Program-made: the position numbers and the translations under genes
Virus record (IMG/VR): IMGVR_UViG_3300045988_169928
Span: 45,391-109,390 of that record
Source: a virus
Length of the DNA: 64,000 nt
Direction: 5' to 3' (one strand)
The notes under the pieces: generated by a model
Told to the model about the DNA's origin: nothing
Database searches by the model: none
Seen by the model: the letters and a program-made list of their open reading frames with translations, nothing else
Part shown: positions 28,732 through 38,105 of the stretch, piece by piece
Position numbering within the stretch: position 1 is the first letter of the stretch
Layout: each line of letters opens with the position of its first letter

Positions 28732-28962
28732 TTAATTCTCATGGTGATAGACAATGGTTAATACAGTTGCATACTGTGCAATATCAACTAATTCAGTGTC
28801 AATCTTAAAAGCGTCAACCTTGACGTCTTGCTGGTCATACTTAGCTAACCATTTATTTAACTTATTAACACATTTTTTTACATCTTCATCACTATAGTAT
28901 GGTTCAATATATGCTGATTTATTAACCTTATTACCATAGAAACTATTAGTTAGATACTCCAT
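28732..28962 (-). CDS. hypothetical protein
   Basis: 76 aa. First ORF-track gene of the minus-strand unit leaving the control region. Small upstream minus-strand ORFs of 35 aa (29137-29241, one TM) and 54 aa (about 28953-29117) are also open. Confidence 0.4.
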   Translation of the reverse strand: MEYLTNSFYGNKVNKSAYIEPYYSDEDVKKCVNKLNKWLAKYDQQDVKVDAFKIDTELVDIAQYATVLTIVYHHEN

Positions 28963-30737
28963 AGTTCTTCTACCCCCACTTCATGTACCTTACGTCCGTC
29001 TGGGAATACCACTGTGAACTCCTCTTTTAATAAGTTCACGCCAAGTAACCTAACTGGCTTACCTTGGTACATTACTGCTTGTCCAGTCTGAAAACAATGT
29101 TCTGCTTGATTCATTTCCATCTTAACTACTGACCTTCTTATCCGAGAAACAGTGCTACTAACAGTAAACTAACCAGACTACCTACGATCACACTGGTGGT
29201 TAGGTTAATTAAATCATAGTTAAACTGATCTTCTTCTTTCATCTAGTCCATCTTACTTTCTATTTGATTGTCTTTATTATCTACCACTACGTCCTAATTG
29301 TCAATACTTTTTTCTAATCAATGGTAAAAATAAAGTTCTGACTATTTCTATCTTAATAATATTAACCTAGTTAGTTGTTCTAATCTTTATCCCTAATTAA
29401 TGAATGTTTATTCCAGTTTTTCAGTTATATTCATTTCTATTAATTCTTACAGTAAATACTGGTGTTATATCCTTGTTGTAAGAATATTCATTTCTAACTG
29501 TTATATGTATACTAGCTAACTCCGTCCTAGCTATTCTAACCTAACCTAAGAGTTAAACCAAGAATGTTAACCAAGAAGATAAAACTTTAAGGGTTAAACC
29601 TTTAAGAGTTATCTCTTTCTGGATAACAGTTTACAAGGAAGTAACCTGTTATCCAAAGTTTAACCTTGACAATATGTGAACACCCGAGTTTGGGTTGAGG
29701 GAGTGAAGGGGAAGGTTAAACTTTTACCTCCTACTCCGGACAGAAAATACAGATTAATACATAGGAATTAACTGATGGAATAGGGGGTAAGAGTTGTAAG
29801 TGATTAATATTGGGAAACACCGAGTTTGGTATATCGGTCGTTCGGGTATAGTACATCACAGGGGAACCTTTACTATGAAACGTATTTCAACTGGATCAAT
29901 CTAACAGCTTTTTAAAACCTCCGGAAGTCCCGGTTTCTGATCATTGGTATTATCACTAATACCTTTAACCATAATTAGTTAAGCAGTGTTCACCATTCCT
30001 GATTACTTTTTAGCTTACCTAGTTCCAACAAGTGTCGGTCTGTTAGCTCCTCCCCTTGGTTACTTGTAACTTAATGTTTAGCATATCAAGACCAAACATC
30101 ACCAGTTACAAGACCGTTAGGGAACTTCCCTACCAGCCGTGCCTTATAGTAGCACTCACTAATACTAAAGCTACGGCCCTAGGTTTTAATTGGTTCCCCC
30201 ATGAATCAGGCTAATTTGTAGCTTCGCATGAATTTTATAGTTAGGCTCATGACACCATCTCAATCGGTTTTAAGACCCTTATTCCTCTCTGGCAACCTAG
30301 TAGCAAGTCATATGCTATTCAGTTGTGATAGTCCAGTCTTGGATATAGAACCCGGAACTTGCTTGATTTATAGTTCCCAAACCTGTAATTGTAACGCGCC
30401 TCATGAGACCTTGCCTTGTGGGGGGCGTTCACCTCGTTATCCCATTGCCTAATCAAGTAGGCTTAACTCAAACGGTGAAGTTGATATTTAACTGTAAGAT
30501 ACTAGGACACACGGTTTTGCCCTTATCCTAGTAGGGTACTCGTAGCTATTTCAACGGGTATTGAACGTTCTACTCATACTCACCAATCTCTTGGTTTTAA
30601 TTTAACCCTAGTATATCACAACCAACAATAGAGGCAAGGGATTTGCCTAAATTTATCAAAAAAAATTTGAAATTCTCTTGACGTTGATAAAAAGTGGGTA
30701 TAAACTAGAACCATGAAATAGAAAAGGAGACACAATT
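28963..30737. promoter_or_regulatory. 1.8-kb ORF-poor divergent control region: AT-rich block with direct repeats, GTTAAAC-type iterons, GC-richer structured segment, and outward promoters
   Basis: No ORF >60 aa on either strand except a weak 74-aa frame. ATATTCATTTCTA x2 (29426, 29484). TGTTAA(A)CCAAGAA x2 plus three more GTTAAAC/GTTTAAC copies (29551-29725). Minus-strand promoter with AAAGTATTGACAATT motif at about 29296. Plus-strand promoter TTGACG-N-TATAAA at about 30679-30707. Confidence 0.5.
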
Positions 30738-31061
30738 ATGCACTGGTACCGAATGAATTTAGGAACTAATTTCCCAGTTTTAAGCGAGAGAACCACCAGT
30801 GCCTTTGTCAACGTATTACGGGATAATAACTCCCCAGAACATAAGGCTGTTGAAAACTACGACCACTTTGGCTTAGTTCACATTGGATTAGATGTTCACG
30901 GGGTATATTTACAGACACAATCAAATAGCATTGAATGTGCCCACGAACGATTCACAGAGATTATCTTGCAAGTAATTAAATCTCTTAATATCAGCGAAGT
31001 TAACGATGAAACTATTGAACACGCCGTAGTAGAACAAGGAATCATTAGACAAGGGCTATAA
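30738..31061 (+). CDS. hypothetical early protein
   Basis: RBS AAAAGGAGA. 107 aa. First plus-strand gene after the control region. Confidence 0.5.
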   Translation: MHWYRMNLGTNFPVLSERTTSAFVNVLRDNNSPEHKAVENYDHFGLVHIGLDVHGVYLQTQSNSIECAHERFTEIILQVIKSLNISEVNDETIEHAVVEQGIIRQGL

Positions 31062-31789: not shown

Positions 31790-31862
31790 GCTAATTTAGC
31801 TCAATTGGCAGAGCGCCTGCCTTGTAAGCAGGAGGCTACAAGTTCGATTCTTGTAATTAGCA
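31790..31862 (+). tRNA. tRNA-Thr (anticodon UGU)
   Basis: Cloverleaf: acceptor GCTAATT/AATTAGC+A. Anticodon stem CCTGC/GCAGG with loop CTTGTAA. T-arm GTTCGATTC. Confidence 0.8.
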
Positions 31863-31926
31863 TTGTTGGCCATTTCTAACTTTCTCTTTTTTATCAATTC
31901 CCACTAGATCTTGTGGCCAACATTTT

Positions 31927-32015
31927 GGAGAATTACCCAAGTTGGTTGAAGGGGCACCCCTGCTAAGGGTGTAGGCCGGGAAACTGGTGCGAGAGTTCGA
32001 ATCTCTCATTCTCCG
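31927..32015 (+). tRNA. tRNA-Ser (anticodon GCU), long variable arm
   Basis: Acceptor GGAGAAT/ATTCTCC+G. Anticodon stem CACCC/GGGTG with loop CTGCTAA. Long extra arm. T-loop GTTCGAATC. Confidence 0.75.
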
Positions 32016-32120
32016 TTGCAACATCAACATATTGTTGAACCGTTGCAAACCTGACCGATATTTGATAATTTTTAGCCCGTAAAAATTTTGCAGTCGCTAT
32101 TAGTTCAGGTTGTTTAAGTG

Positions 32121-35915: not shown

Positions 35916-36728
35916 ATGGAAAACAAATTACAACTATTTGATTTCAAAGGGCAACAAGTCCGCACAGTGATCATTGACAATGAGCCTTACTTCGTTGGTA
36001 AGGACGTTGCAATGATTCTTGGATATAAAGATTTAAGCCGTGCTCTTAATCAGCACGTAGAAAAAGAAAGCCGCAAGTCCTTGTCCCTCAAGGCTTCGGG
36101 CGATTCGTACCCTAGCCTATGGGAAGGCAAAAACGATTTTTCAAATAAGATAGTAATTAATGAGTCGGGAGTTTATGATTTGATTTTTAATTCCCAATTA
36201 CCGAAAGCTCATGAGTTCAAACACTGGGTCACTAGCGAAGTCCTCCCATCAATTCGCAAGCACGGTGCCTATTTAACGCCAGACAAGATTGAGGAAGTCT
36301 TGTTGAACCCAGATACTTTGATTAAACTTGCAACAGAACTCAAGAAAGAACGTGAAGGGCGTGTGTTGGCTGAACAAAAAATCCAACAGGATCGTCCAAA
36401 AGTCTTATTCGCTGACGCAGTATCAGCAAGTGACACGCCTATTCTAATTGGTGAGTTAACAAAGATCTTAAAGCAAAATGGGATTGAGATTGGACAGAAC
36501 CGATTGTTTGTTTGGTTAAGGAGTAAAGGCTACCTAATCTCACGGAATGGTACAGACTACAATACACCAACACAGAAAAGCATGGAATTAGGTCTATTTA
36601 AGATTAAAGAACGCACCCGTGTTTCTAGTGACGGTAGTGTTAAGATCACTAAGACGTCAATGGTAACGGGTAAAGGTCAGCAATACTTTGTTAATAAGTT
36701 TTTAGGCGAGAAATATAGTATCAAGTAA
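35916..36728 (+). CDS. antirepressor (Bro-N domain + KilA-C/ANT C-terminal domain)
   Basis: FDFKGQQVRTVIIDNEPYFVGKDVAMILGY (Bro-N). C-terminal RPKVLFADAVSASDTPILIGELTKIL...FVWLRSKGYLISRNG (KilAC). Confidence 0.8.
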   Translation: MENKLQLFDFKGQQVRTVIIDNEPYFVGKDVAMILGYKDLSRALNQHVEKESRKSLSLKASGDSYPSLWEGKNDFSNKIVINESGVYDLIFNSQLPKAHEFKHWVTSEVLPSIRKHGAYLTPDKIEEVLLNPDTLIKLATELKKEREGRVLAEQKIQQDRPKVLFADAVSASDTPILIGELTKILKQNGIEIGQNRLFVWLRSKGYLISRNGTDYNTPTQKSMELGLFKIKERTRVSSDGSVKITKTSMVTGKGQQYFVNKFLGEKYSIK

Positions 36729-37490: not shown

Positions 37491-38105
37491 ACTTTAGTAT
37501 GCTATTATAATAAATGTAAACTTGAAGTGGGTGAATAAGGGTCTTGCAAACCCGCCCCTCATGATTACCTGTAAAGCACCTAAGACGTGGTTAAATGGTA
37601 GCTTAACTATTTCAATTGGTAACAGGTAATAGTGTTACCAACTAGAGAAAAAAATCTAGGGTGGTGGTAATCATGGAAATTAGCTTGAGGATTTAGGGTA
37701 GCCACGGACTGGCTAACCACAATACTATACCCGTAGTTAAATCGCCTTGAACAAGCGAATGACCCAAAGCGGGAGGTCTCATTAAGGTAGTTACCGATGA
37801 AGCGTGGTAACACGTGTATAACAGTCCAGTGGTGTATGAGTAGCTAACGGTACATAAACAGCAAATTTATGTATATTACAATCTATGCTTACGCTTAGTG
37901 AAAGTTGGTGGGTACCGATCCCAGCCCAGCCTTGGCCATTTGCTATCAGAGCTGTTTGTTGACGAATAAATAGTAAGCCTGATAGGTGCTGTCACCTAAT
38001 AAAGTCTGTTTGCTGATATTCCACGTAAACCAATACGCAAGTTTATAAAAGAAGCTCACTACCCAATATGGGTGGTGGGCTTTTATTGTATATTACAATT
38101 GATAG
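37491..38105 (+). other. 615-bp GC-richer intergenic segment with multiple stable hairpins ending in a terminator-like hairpin (38056-38090); candidate structured ncRNA
   Basis: No credible ORF. 8-bp hairpin TGGTAACA-ggtaatag-TGTTACCA. TTACC-gatgaagcgt-GGTAA. Terminal GCTCACTACCCAATATGGGTGGTGGGCTTTTATT. Confidence 0.3.

What the first reader, a model, noticed from the sequence alone, without database searches (positions are those of the whole stretch)
28963..30737. 1.8-kb ORF-free control region: AT-rich repeats, GTTAAAC iterons and a ~1-kb GC-richer structured block (origin and/or large ncRNA?)
This is the longest non-coding stretch in the window and separates the two divergent super-modules. 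It contains (i) an extremely AT-rich segment with the direct repeat ATATTCATTTCTA (29426, 29484); (ii) five copies of GTTAAAC/GTTTAAC-centred motifs within 180 bp, including the tandem TGTTAA(A)CCAAGAA x2 (29551-29580); and (iii) from about 29700 to 30700 a markedly GC-richer sequence full of short inverted repeats, with no credible ORF on either strand. Features (i) and (ii) look like replication-origin iterons next to a DNA-unwinding element, with the polymerase, helicase and nuclease genes downstream. Feature (iii) could be a long structured RNA, or an intron/ribozyme remnant.
Basis: seen in the sequence. Interest (0 to 1): 0.6.

Follow-up and report, generated by a model that had tools for sequence, protein, structure and literature searches.

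The report
Large structured phage RNA gene candidate
The "GC-richer block" is most likely the gene for a roughly 1,000-nucleotide, highly folded non-coding RNA on the minus strand of a Lactobacillus fermentum phage; it matches no described RNA family, and the same genome also carries a ROOL RNA.

Summary
The window is a relative of Lactobacillus phage LfeInf (Herelleviridae), about 92% identical. The ORF-free gap is 29243-30737, not 28963-30737, because two small minus-strand genes (56 and 34 aa) occupy 28950-29242 and evolve like coding sequence.

The core block 29683-30605 is 92-95% identical across 15 distinct relatives. The flanking genes are only 76-85% identical. Substitutions in the block show no codon periodicity. 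No Rfam 15 family matches at E<=10, although the same library finds a ROOL RNA 7 kb away.

Several results point to the minus strand:
- An extended -10 sigma-70 promoter (TTGCCY-16-TGnTAnnnT) is conserved at the block's right edge.
- Three tetraloops vary between lineages yet always read GNRA on that strand.
- It gives a better consensus fold (-210.6 vs -182.2 kcal/mol).
- Fewer of its variable base pairs are broken (31 kept, 10 broken, against 20 and 19).

Six base pairs show compensatory double changes.

I conclude it is a stand-alone structured RNA of about 0.92-1.03 kb and a candidate new family, so far confined to LfeInf-like phages. Its function is unknown.

The AT-rich segment and the short repeats are real. 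However, the GTTAAAC motif is absent from one sister lineage, and an origin role remains untested.

The parts
30632..30648 (-). Hairpin AGGCAA-AUCCC-UUGCCU followed by a U-rich tail. It looks like a terminator and sits just upstream of the RNA promoter. Its 3' arm is also the -35 hexamer.
   Evidence: Flagged as terminator-like on the minus strand in the window, on both strands in LfeInf and on the plus strand in L004. Its outermost pair varies as G-U (6), A-U (4) and G-C (3) on the minus strand (cols 13/29). The G-U cells would be A.C mismatches on the plus strand.
30610..30637 (-). Sigma-70-type extended -10 promoter of the RNA: -35 TTGCCT (30637-30632), 16-nt spacer, TG (30618-30617), -10 TATACT (30615-30610). 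The predicted start is about 30603.
   Evidence: Found by the promoter scan in the window, L004 and LfeInf. Across 15 sequences the -10 reads TATACT, TACACT or TAGAAT, so TAnnnT is always kept. The -35 reads TTGCCY in all 15 and the TG is present in 13 of 15 (two read TA), while neighbouring bases vary (cols 24-51). The conserved block begins right at the predicted start.
29683..30603 (-). Conserved core of the candidate structured non-coding RNA, about 920 nt.
   Evidence: 92-95% identical in relatives whose flanking genes are 76-85% identical. No codon periodicity. No Rfam match. Consensus fold -210.6 kcal/mol on the minus strand against -182.2 on the plus strand. 99.6% of cells are paired, and 24 cells show double changes against 8.9+-2.6 in shuffles.
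30582..30595 (-). 5' hairpin ACCAA-GNRA-UUGGU. The loop at 30590-30587 reads GAGA, GUGA or GCAA in different lineages.
30536..30579 (-). Hairpin with an inner stem (30565-30550) carrying two covarying pairs. One varies A-U, C-G and G-C; the other G-C and A-U.
   Evidence: pairs 102/109 (AU:9 CG:5 GC:1) and 93/118 (GC:11 AU:4). Coordinates.
30239..30493 (-). Domain II: a multi-branched domain closed by helices 30493-30465 with 30265-30239. It is almost invariant.
29856..30204 (-). Domain III: closed by a 13-bp long-range helix, UCAUGGGGGAACC (30204-30192) with GGUUCCCCUGUGA (29868-29856).
   Evidence: Predicted in both the 7-sequence and the 15-sequence consensus folds. The helix is invariant, so covariation neither supports nor contradicts it (helix 20).
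29939..30124 (-). Variable arm of domain III (84-88% identity). It holds most of the compensatory and wobble changes and two GNRA loops: 29999-29996 (GGAA, GUAA, GUGA) and 29956-29953 (GUGA, GCAA, GUAA, GAAA).
   Evidence: and (helices 24-31).
29700..29843 (-). 3' region with hairpins 29843-29815, 29772-29753 and 29737-29700 (GGAGUAGGAGG with CCUUCACUCC).
   Evidence: One double change occurs in 29772-29753 (pair 905/914).
29573..29606 (-). Candidate intrinsic terminator of the RNA: a near-palindromic hairpin (29606-29585) followed by UUUUAUCUUCUU (29584-29573). If it is used, the RNA is about 1,025 nt long.
   Evidence: The sequence itself. The LfeInf equivalent is flagged as terminator-like on the minus strand. 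It is absent from L004/5/6 and L069, so the 3' end is uncertain.
29552..29655 (.). Short-repeat zone: tandem 13-mers GTTAAACCAAGAAT and GTTAACCAAGAAG (29552-29578), an inverted repeat at 29620-29634 / 29641-29655, and three GTTATCY sites (29608, 29621, 29648).
   Evidence: The repeat content differs between lineages, so it evolves faster than the RNA core.
29243..29540 (.). AT-rich spacer (GC about 0.23-0.29). It holds ATATTCATTTCTA x2 (29427, 29484) and the strong minus-strand promoter TTGACA-17-GATAAT (29304-29276) for the leftward genes.
   Evidence: The promoter is conserved in L004 and LfeInf.
30678..30706 (+). Divergent plus-strand promoter TTGACG-17-TAAACT for the 107-aa gene at 30738.

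Best explanation
Window positions 29683-30603 encode, on the minus strand, a stand-alone, highly structured non-coding RNA of about 920 nt. It may reach about 1,025 nt if it runs to the hairpin and U tract at 29606-29573.

Host sigma-70 RNA polymerase would transcribe it leftward from a conserved extended -10 promoter at 30637-30610 (inferred). This promoter lies back-to-back with the rightward promoter of the replication-side genes.

The RNA is predicted to fold into a 5' hairpin domain, two multi-branched domains closed by long-range helices, and a 3' hairpin region. It carries at least three GNRA tetraloops. In other large RNAs such loops make tertiary or intermolecular contacts (established knowledge of GNRA loops, not tested here).

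By analogy, it would act in trans as an abundant early RNA, like ROOL and GOLLD RNAs and the unclassified long non-coding RNAs of staphylococcal Kayvirus phages. It would not be a leader for the downstream genes, because those have their own strong promoter.

The biochemical function is not shown. My working guess is an RNA scaffold or self-assembling particle.

Shown here: nucleotide-level selection, non-coding character, strand, promoter conservation, and some base-pair covariation. Inferred: transcription, exact ends, tertiary fold, and function.
For: 1. The block is 92-95% identical in five or more lineages whose flanking genes are 76-85% identical and whose flanking intergenic DNA is 75-84% identical.
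2. Substitutions fall 33/32/29 by position modulo 3, and 7/5/7 within the longest ORF. The two small genes next door show clear third-position bias.
3. The promoter is kept as TTGCCY-16-TGnTAnnnT. The -35 and the TAnnnT of the -10 (TATACT, TACACT, TAGAAT) hold in all 15 sequences, and the TG holds in 13 of 15, within an otherwise variable stretch. The conserved block starts at the predicted transcription start.
4. Three tetraloops change between lineages but only at positions 2 and 3, and they always read GNRA on the minus strand: GAGA/GUGA/GCAA, GGAA/GUAA/GUGA and GUGA/GCAA/GUAA/GAAA. On the plus strand they would read UCUC, UCAC, UUGC and so on.
5. The consensus fold is -210.6 kcal/mol (minus) against -182.2 (plus). 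Variable pairs are kept or broken 31/10 on the minus strand against 20/19 on the plus strand. Single-sequence z-scores are -3.8 against -2.1.
6. Six pairs and 24 cells show changes on both sides, against 8.9+-2.6 cells in shuffles (0 of 500 reach the observed value) and 0-2 cells in slid controls.
7. Staphylococcal Herelleviridae phages express unclassified long non-coding RNAs at very high levels from an early promoter near the lysis genes and tRNAs (PMC9241854, PMC7698491).
Against: - There are no expression data for this phage, so transcription, the ends and abundance are all inferred.
- All 15 sequences are at least 91% identical. 215 of the 256 predicted pairs never vary and only 6 show double changes. 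'Pairs with a change on both sides' does not exceed the shuffles (97 of 500), so the detailed fold is weakly tested.
- The structure was predicted from the same sequences, which inflates agreement.
- Helices shared by both strands do not discriminate the strand (G-U 6 cells against A.C 4 cells).
- The candidate terminator is missing from two lineages.
- No relative was found outside LfeInf-like phages, so deep conservation is unknown.
- High identity could partly reflect recombination between co-circulating phages.
Confidence: 0.72

Rival explanations
1. The locus is a replication origin. The AT-rich spacer (29243-29540) would be the DNA-unwinding element and the short repeats (29552-29655) would bind an initiator. 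The conserved block could then serve as a structured pre-primer or R-loop-forming transcript. In that case it would resemble ColE1 RNA II or the transcript-primed T4 origins (recalled from knowledge of those systems, not tested), reading leftward from the 30637 promoter into the AT-rich DNA.
For: - The cumulative GC-skew minimum lies at about 30 kb.
- The AT-rich window is the second lowest in GC of the 64 kb.
- Short repeats whose content differs between lineages resemble iterons, and GTTATCY sites resemble DnaA boxes (TTATCCAAA, TTATCCAGA).
- The RNA is transcribed toward the AT-rich DNA.
- A family A DNA polymerase and a helicase are encoded within 6 kb.
Against: - The skew switch coincides exactly with the switch in gene orientation, which alone could produce it.
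- Several other windows are equally AT-rich.
- GTTAAAC is absent from L004/5/6, and the repeats are far less conserved than the RNA.
- The tandem 13-mers are spaced 13-14 nt apart, not a helical-turn multiple.
- No initiator gene was identified next to the locus.
- A primer role does not by itself explain GNRA loops maintained in a variable arm, or conservation over 920 nt.
- A terminator-like hairpin and a strong promoter lie between the RNA and the AT-rich part.
Confidence: 0.15
2. The block is a long 5' leader or cis-regulatory RNA for the leftward operon (34-aa, 56-aa, 76-aa and HIRAN genes, and onward to the lysis genes). It would control read-through at the 29606-29573 hairpin.
For: It has the same orientation as the downstream genes and lies directly upstream of them. 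A terminator-like hairpin sits between them.
Against: - A near-consensus promoter (TTGACA-17-GATAAT, 11 of 12 matches) lies between the RNA and the genes and is conserved in all lineages checked.
- The 440 nt between the RNA core and the first gene are poorly conserved and vary in length.
- The hairpin is missing from two lineages.
- About 920 nt is far larger than the cis-regulatory leaders I know of (from my own knowledge, not tested here).
Confidence: 0.07
3. The block has no RNA function. It would be a recently exchanged mosaic segment, or a DNA-level element (protein-binding array, packaging or recombination site), that looks conserved only because it spread recently among these phages.
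For: Phage genomes are mosaic. All known copies are at least 91% identical and come from one phage group.
Against: - The excess conservation over both flanks is seen consistently in at least four lineages that differ from each other.
- Variation inside the block is structured. It is concentrated in one arm, keeps GNRA loops, and gives double changes and wobble changes in predicted stems, with a strand asymmetry.
- A promoter is kept at its edge.
Confidence: 0.06

Closest known systems
ROOL RNA (Rfam RF03087)
   Same: A large, multi-domain structured RNA of unknown function carried by phages and prophages of Lactobacillales. A ROOL copy lies in the same genome at 37503-38048. ROOL is abundant and forms RNA-only nanocages (PMC12286853).
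   Different: The ROOL covariance model does not match at E<=10, and the block shows no sequence similarity to the window's own ROOL. The candidate is about 920-1,025 nt against an average of about 581 nt for ROOL (PMC5737381). It is on the opposite strand, at the head of the leftward module, and is not co-transcribed with tRNAs.
GOLLD RNA
   Same: Similar size class (many members exceed 800 nt). Phage- and prophage-borne, first seen in Lactobacillales. It combines a conserved region with a less conserved one, and its function is unknown (PMC12286853).
   Different: No hit to any Rfam model, which I take to include GOLLD, even when halves of the block are searched with lax filters. The nearest tRNAs are 1.2 kb away on the other strand. 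In GOLLD the variable part is the 5' region; here it is an internal arm.
Kayvirus (Staphylococcus phage K / vB_SauM-515A1) lncRNA2
   Same: The host phage is also a member of Herelleviridae. This RNA is an unclassified long non-coding RNA on the minus strand with its own typical early promoter, near the lysis module and tRNA genes. It is highly expressed, at 8.4% of phage counts (PMC7698491, PMC9241854). It too has no Rfam match.
   Different: No detectable sequence similarity by blastn or nhmmer. The phage K RNA lies directly upstream of three co-oriented tRNAs, whereas this one does not. Homology is therefore unproven, and the resemblance is positional.
ColE1 RNA II and transcript-primed phage origins (T4 oriF/oriG type)
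   Same: A sigma-70 promoter drives a structured transcript of several hundred nucleotides toward an easily melted region. A Pol I-type polymerase is encoded nearby. The comparison rests on my own knowledge of those systems.
   Different: No antisense RNA I partner or matching Rfam family was found. No origin activity is known here. A terminator-like hairpin and another promoter intervene.

Membership tests
ROOL RNA (RF03087) | Match to the family covariance model at or above its gathering score | tested here: not met
   No ROOL hit in 28900-31000 on either strand at E<=10. As a positive control, the same library finds ROOL at 37503-38048 with 124.6 bits.
GOLLD RNA | Match to the Rfam covariance model (conserved 3' domain) | tested here: not met
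   No hit at E<=10 for the whole region or for the halves 29660-30215 and 30185-30625. This assumes GOLLD is among the 4,227 Rfam 15 models.
GOLLD / ROOL | Frequent position next to, or co-transcription with, tRNA genes | tested here: not met
   tRNA-Thr and tRNA-Ser lie at 31790-32016 on the plus strand, 1.2 kb away and divergent from the RNA.
Large structured ('ornate') phage/bacterial non-coding RNAs, as a kind | Long non-coding stretch conserved more strongly than its neighbours | tested here: met
   92-95% against 76-85% identity. No codon periodicity.
Large structured ('ornate') phage/bacterial non-coding RNAs, as a kind | Multi-stem secondary structure supported by covariation | tested here: inconclusive
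   6 pairs and 24 cells show double changes, 25 pairs show wobble-compatible single changes, and GNRA loops are maintained. However, 215 of 256 pairs are invariant, and the number of covarying pairs does not exceed the shuffles (97 of 500).
Large structured ('ornate') phage/bacterial non-coding RNAs, as a kind | Expressed as a discrete, abundant RNA | not testable with these tools
   Only a conserved promoter and a candidate terminator are available.
Group I / group II introns, RNase P, tmRNA, 6S, OLE, HEARO and other large Rfam families | Match to the covariance model | tested here: not met
   ARAGORN finds no tRNA or tmRNA in the block.
Iteron-type replication origin | Repeated initiator-binding motif conserved among relatives | tested here: inconclusive
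   GTTAAAC is absent from L004/5/6. ATATTCAT and GTTATC recur in every lineage checked. The 13-mer and CTAACCTAAGAGTTA repeats differ in content between lineages.
Iteron-type replication origin | Adjacent AT-rich unwinding element | tested here: met
   GC is 0.23 at 29307-29506, the second lowest window in the 64 kb, though other windows are similar.
Iteron-type replication origin | Origin activity, or a strand-composition switch not explained by transcription | not testable with these tools
   The skew minimum at about 30 kb coincides with the gene-orientation switch.
Kayvirus lncRNA2 | Sequence homology | tested here: not met
   blastn gives only chance hits (E>=0.58) and nhmmer gives none.

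The most novel reading that the evidence does not exclude
This would be a third, previously undescribed class of giant phage RNA (about 1 kb), alongside ROOL and GOLLD. It would use its maintained GNRA loops and long-range helices to build an RNA-only higher-order particle. Alternatively, it would be a structured pre-primer that couples early transcription to initiation of phage DNA replication at the adjacent AT-rich repeat region. Because it occurs in the same genome as ROOL, the two RNAs could be studied together in one tractable Lactobacillus phage.
Probability: 0.2. Interest if true: 0.85.

Novelty: new variant of a known kind. Interest (0 to 1): 0.62.

Why it matters
As far as I know, structured non-coding RNAs approaching 1 kb are very rare in bacteria and phages outside rRNA, group II introns and GOLLD. 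The functions of ROOL and GOLLD are still unknown even though their cryo-EM structures have been solved.

A further large RNA with no detectable relation to them would add an independent example. This one has its own early-type promoter, sits at the divergence point of a lytic phage's two gene modules, and shares a genome with ROOL. That gives a genetically tractable system (LfeInf on L. fermentum) for asking what such RNAs do.

It also suggests that the abundant, unclassified long non-coding RNAs seen in staphylococcal Herelleviridae transcriptomes may be one case of a wider habit in this phage family.

On the practical side, LfeInf and the metagenome assemblies place 50-67-aa 'hypothetical proteins' inside the block, and these are probably spurious.

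Tried and rejected
- **Rfam.** A gathering-threshold scan of the whole window, and E<=10 scans of the region and of its two halves, found no family for the block. The only hits were chance-level hairpin matches (TD-2 at E 0.65, XIST_intron at E 0.64-2.4).
- **Protein-coding reading.** Rejected. Substitutions show no periodicity, the longest stop-free stretch (76 codons) shrinks to 50 in L010, and the 74-aa ORF has only near-identical 'homologues' that are the same DNA.
- **Search for distant relatives.**
  - blastn and megablast against 50,697 phage records found only LfeInf.
  - Four exact patterns in IMG/VR found only LfeInf plus chance hits.
  - An 18-mer in JGI metagenomes gave one true hit among 17.
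  - A 17-mer in GTDB genomes gave only chance hits.
  - tblastn with flanking proteins found only LfeInf.
  - The DNA polymerase's next relatives are only about 33% identical.
- **More copies.** These came only through neighbouring-gene and spurious-ORF look-ups, and all are at least 91% identical.
- **Paralogy with the window's ROOL or anything else in the 64 kb.** None found.
- **Homology with phage K lncRNA2.** None detectable.
- **Whether phage K lncRNA1 is a ROOL.** It is not. The only result was a near-threshold DUF3800-I hit.
- **Strand call from helices shared by both strands.** Uninformative.
- **Partner protein next to the RNA.** Pfam and PHROGs searches of the neighbours found nothing suggestive: HIRAN, LysM/transglycosylase, and unknowns.
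- **Covariance model.** I did not build one.
Full report
**Identity of the window and boundaries of the gap**

The region 28900-30800 matches Lactobacillus phage LfeInf (Herelleviridae, Hopescreekvirus; host L. fermentum) at about 92% identity. It matches nothing else among 50,697 phage records. In LfeInf the locus lies between a leftward block (small genes, HIRAN, LysM, holin, lysin) and a rightward block (two small genes, tRNA-Thr, tRNA-Ser, DNA polymerase, helicase).

Positions 28950-29120 and 29138-29242 hold two small minus-strand genes, of 56 aa and 34 aa (the latter hydrophobic). Both are annotated in LfeInf and called in metagenome contigs. Their substitutions between lineages are biased to the third codon position: 7/7/16, 5/0/11 and 0/0/6. 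The real gap is therefore 29243-30737.

**The observation**

The AT-rich segment is real. GC is 0.23 at 29307-29506, the second lowest 200-bp window of the 64 kb, though several others are close. The exact repeat ATATTCATTTCTA lies at 29427 and 29484.

GTTWAAC occurs four times in 29552-29721, against 33 in 64 kb. The tandem 13-mers at 29552-29578 are there. The block from about 29700 to 30600 is GC-richer, at 0.38-0.44.

**The block is under selection at the nucleotide level and is not coding**

I reached relatives through homologues of the adjacent 107-aa protein, and through a spurious 67-aa ORF that gene callers place inside the block. One more came from a metagenome pattern scan. This gave 15 distinct copies. 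The window's copy is identical to two human-gut metagenome contigs.

Identity to the window for the block 29683-30605 is 92-95%. For the flanking genes in the more distant lineages it is 76-85%, and for the flanking intergenic DNA it is 75-84%.

The 94 variable positions in the block fall 33/32/29 by position modulo 3. Those in the longest ORF (30228-30452) fall 7/5/7. I conclude there is no protein here.

**No known RNA family**

Rfam 15 at gathering thresholds finds a ROOL RNA at 37503-38048 (124.6 bits) and the two tRNAs, but nothing in the block. At E<=10 with lax filters, on the whole region and on each half, only chance-level hairpin matches appear. ARAGORN finds nothing in the block. 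The block has no paralogue in the window, including the ROOL.

**Strand**

Four independent lines of evidence favour the minus strand.

- *Promoter.* An extended -10 promoter sits exactly at the right edge of the conserved block, with a predicted start near 30603: -35 TTGCCT at 30637-30632, a 16-nt spacer, TG, then -10 TATACT at 30615-30610. The promoter scan finds it in the window, in L004 and in LfeInf. Across 15 sequences the -10 reads TATACT, TACACT or TAGAAT, so TAnnnT is always preserved. The -35 reads TTGCCY in all 15, and the TG is kept in 13 of 15, while the surrounding bases drift. No comparable plus-strand promoter precedes the left edge.
- *GNRA loops.* Three predicted tetraloops differ between lineages yet always satisfy GNRA on the minus strand. 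They are 30590-30587 (GAGA, GUGA, GCAA), 29999-29996 (GGAA, GUAA, GUGA) and 29956-29953 (GUGA, GCAA, GUAA, GAAA). All changes fall on loop positions 2 and 3, and position 3 stays a purine. On the plus strand these loops have no recognisable form.
- *Folding energy.* The consensus fold is better on the minus strand: -210.6 against -182.2 kcal/mol for 15 sequences. Single-sequence z-scores are -3.8 against -2.1.
- *Base-pair changes.* Among predicted pairs that vary, 31 stay paired and 10 have a broken cell on the minus strand, against 20 and 19 on the plus strand.

Helices common to both predictions do not discriminate the strand.

**Structure**

The minus-strand consensus has 256 pairs, and 99.6% of cells are paired. 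Six pairs (24 cells) changed on both sides. Shuffles give 8.9+-2.6 such cells, with 0 of 500 reaching the observed value, and slid controls give 0-2 cells.

The clearest covarying case is the hairpin at 30565-30550, where one pair is A-U, C-G or G-C in different lineages.

The power of this test is limited. 215 pairs never vary, and the count of covarying pairs does not beat the shuffles (97 of 500). One predicted helix (30620-30612 with 29855-29847) includes promoter DNA and is surely spurious.

In window coordinates the model consists of:

- three 5' hairpins (30595-30502);
- a multi-branched domain closed by 30493-30465 with 30265-30239;
- a second domain closed by an invariant 13-bp helix (30204-30192 with 29868-29856), which contains the variable arm 30124-29939 with two of the GNRA loops;
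- 3' hairpins down to 29700, followed by a conserved tail to 29683.

**Ends and surroundings**

Just upstream of the promoter lies a hairpin (30648-30632) whose 3' arm is the -35. Its outer pair covaries, and it reads better on the minus strand. It looks like a terminator that insulates the promoter.

Downstream of the core, most lineages have a near-palindromic hairpin (29606-29585) followed by UUUUAUCUUCUU. The scan flags the equivalent as terminator-like in LfeInf. If it is used, the RNA is about 1,025 nt long. It is missing from L004/5/6 and L069, so the 3' end remains open.

Further left come the variable repeat zone, the AT-rich spacer, and a near-consensus promoter (TTGACA-17-GATAAT, 29304-29276) for the leftward genes, which is conserved in the relatives checked. 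For this reason I favour a stand-alone RNA over a leader.

**The repeats and the origin idea**

GTTAAAC and the 29620-29655 inverted repeat are present in LfeInf-type lineages but absent from L004/5/6. ATATTCAT (2-3 copies) and GTTATC (3-4 copies) recur in every lineage checked. The lineages examined also carry 13-mers of the form GTTWWCCAAGAAG and a CTAACCTAAGAGTTA repeat, with different repeat content from one lineage to the next. Such repeats could be protein-binding sites.

The cumulative GC skew has its minimum at about 30 kb, but that is also where gene orientation flips.

An origin remains possible, perhaps one primed by the leftward transcript. Nothing tested here requires it, and the neighbouring proteins offer no initiator candidate.

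**Comparison with what is known**

The closest kinds are ROOL and GOLLD: large phage-borne RNAs of unknown function that form RNA-only cages (PMC12286853, PMC5737381). Membership in either family fails the covariance-model test.

The closest biological analogue is Kayvirus lncRNA2. It is an unclassified minus-strand RNA with its own early promoter near the lysis genes and tRNAs, and it makes up 8.4% of phage counts (PMC7698491, PMC9241854). I found no sequence similarity to it and no Rfam family for it either.

I found no paper mentioning a non-coding RNA in LfeInf.

**Verdict**

Part (iii) of the finding is a credible new large structured RNA gene on the minus strand. I put about 0.7 confidence on the gene itself and much less on any specific function.

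Parts (i) and (ii) are real sequence features of a fast-evolving spacer that contains a terminator candidate, a strong promoter and short repeats. Their role as an origin is untested.

Noticed in passing
window 37503-38048 (+): A ROOL RNA (RF03087; 124.6 bits against a gathering score of 99.1; full-length model match). It sits between a 249-aa gene and a 310-aa gene that matches a tail-fibre PHROG, just downstream of a Bro-N/KilAC anti-repressor gene (35916-36728).
   Followed up: partly
window 31790-31862 and 31926-32016 (+): tRNA-Thr(TGT) and tRNA-Ser(GCT) lie between the 173-aa gene and the DNA polymerase. They are 1.2 kb from the candidate RNA and on the other strand.
   Followed up: yes
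window 29675-29693 and 29811-29829: A direct repeat inside the RNA, with core AACACCGAGTTTGG and 136 nt between starts. On the minus strand the 3'-terminal conserved tail (CCAAACUCGGUGUU) duplicates the 3' arm of hairpin 29843-29815. The two copies could therefore compete for the same 5' arm, which would allow an alternative fold or a pairing in trans.
   Followed up: no
L060:300-660, L069:620-945, L001:6560-6800 (spacer equivalent to window 29500-29660): The repeat content of the spacer (13-mers of the form GTTWWCCAAGAAG, and CTAACCTAAGAGTTA) differs between otherwise 97-98% identical lineages. LfeInf has a 50-nt insertion here that the window lacks.
   Followed up: partly
L065:2680-3724: One relative (Logan ERR8610001) carries an IS605 OrfB/TnpB (Cas12f-like) gene about 120 nt downstream of the 173-aa gene, where the other lineages have the tRNAs and the polymerase.
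   Followed up: no
L071:833-969 (Staphylococcus phage K 13632-13768, minus strand): The 3' part of the phage K lncRNA1 region gives a near-threshold hit to the DUF3800-I RNA (43.4 bits against a gathering score of 44.2; E 9.5e-05). lncRNA1 is not a ROOL by Rfam.
   Followed up: no
window 29800-29904 and 30228-30452; L001:6948-7100 (LfeInf_040); L004:9512-9715: The 'hypothetical proteins' annotated or called inside the block (34-74 aa) are probably spurious ORFs within a non-coding RNA gene. Different lineages have different ORFs called.
   Followed up: yes
window 29669-30660 compared with L061 and L063: The window's copy of the block and its promoter is identical to contigs from two human gut metagenome runs (SRR2193934, SRR2194524). 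The phage group therefore circulates in the human gut, in addition to the waste-water source recorded for LfeInf.
   Followed up: no
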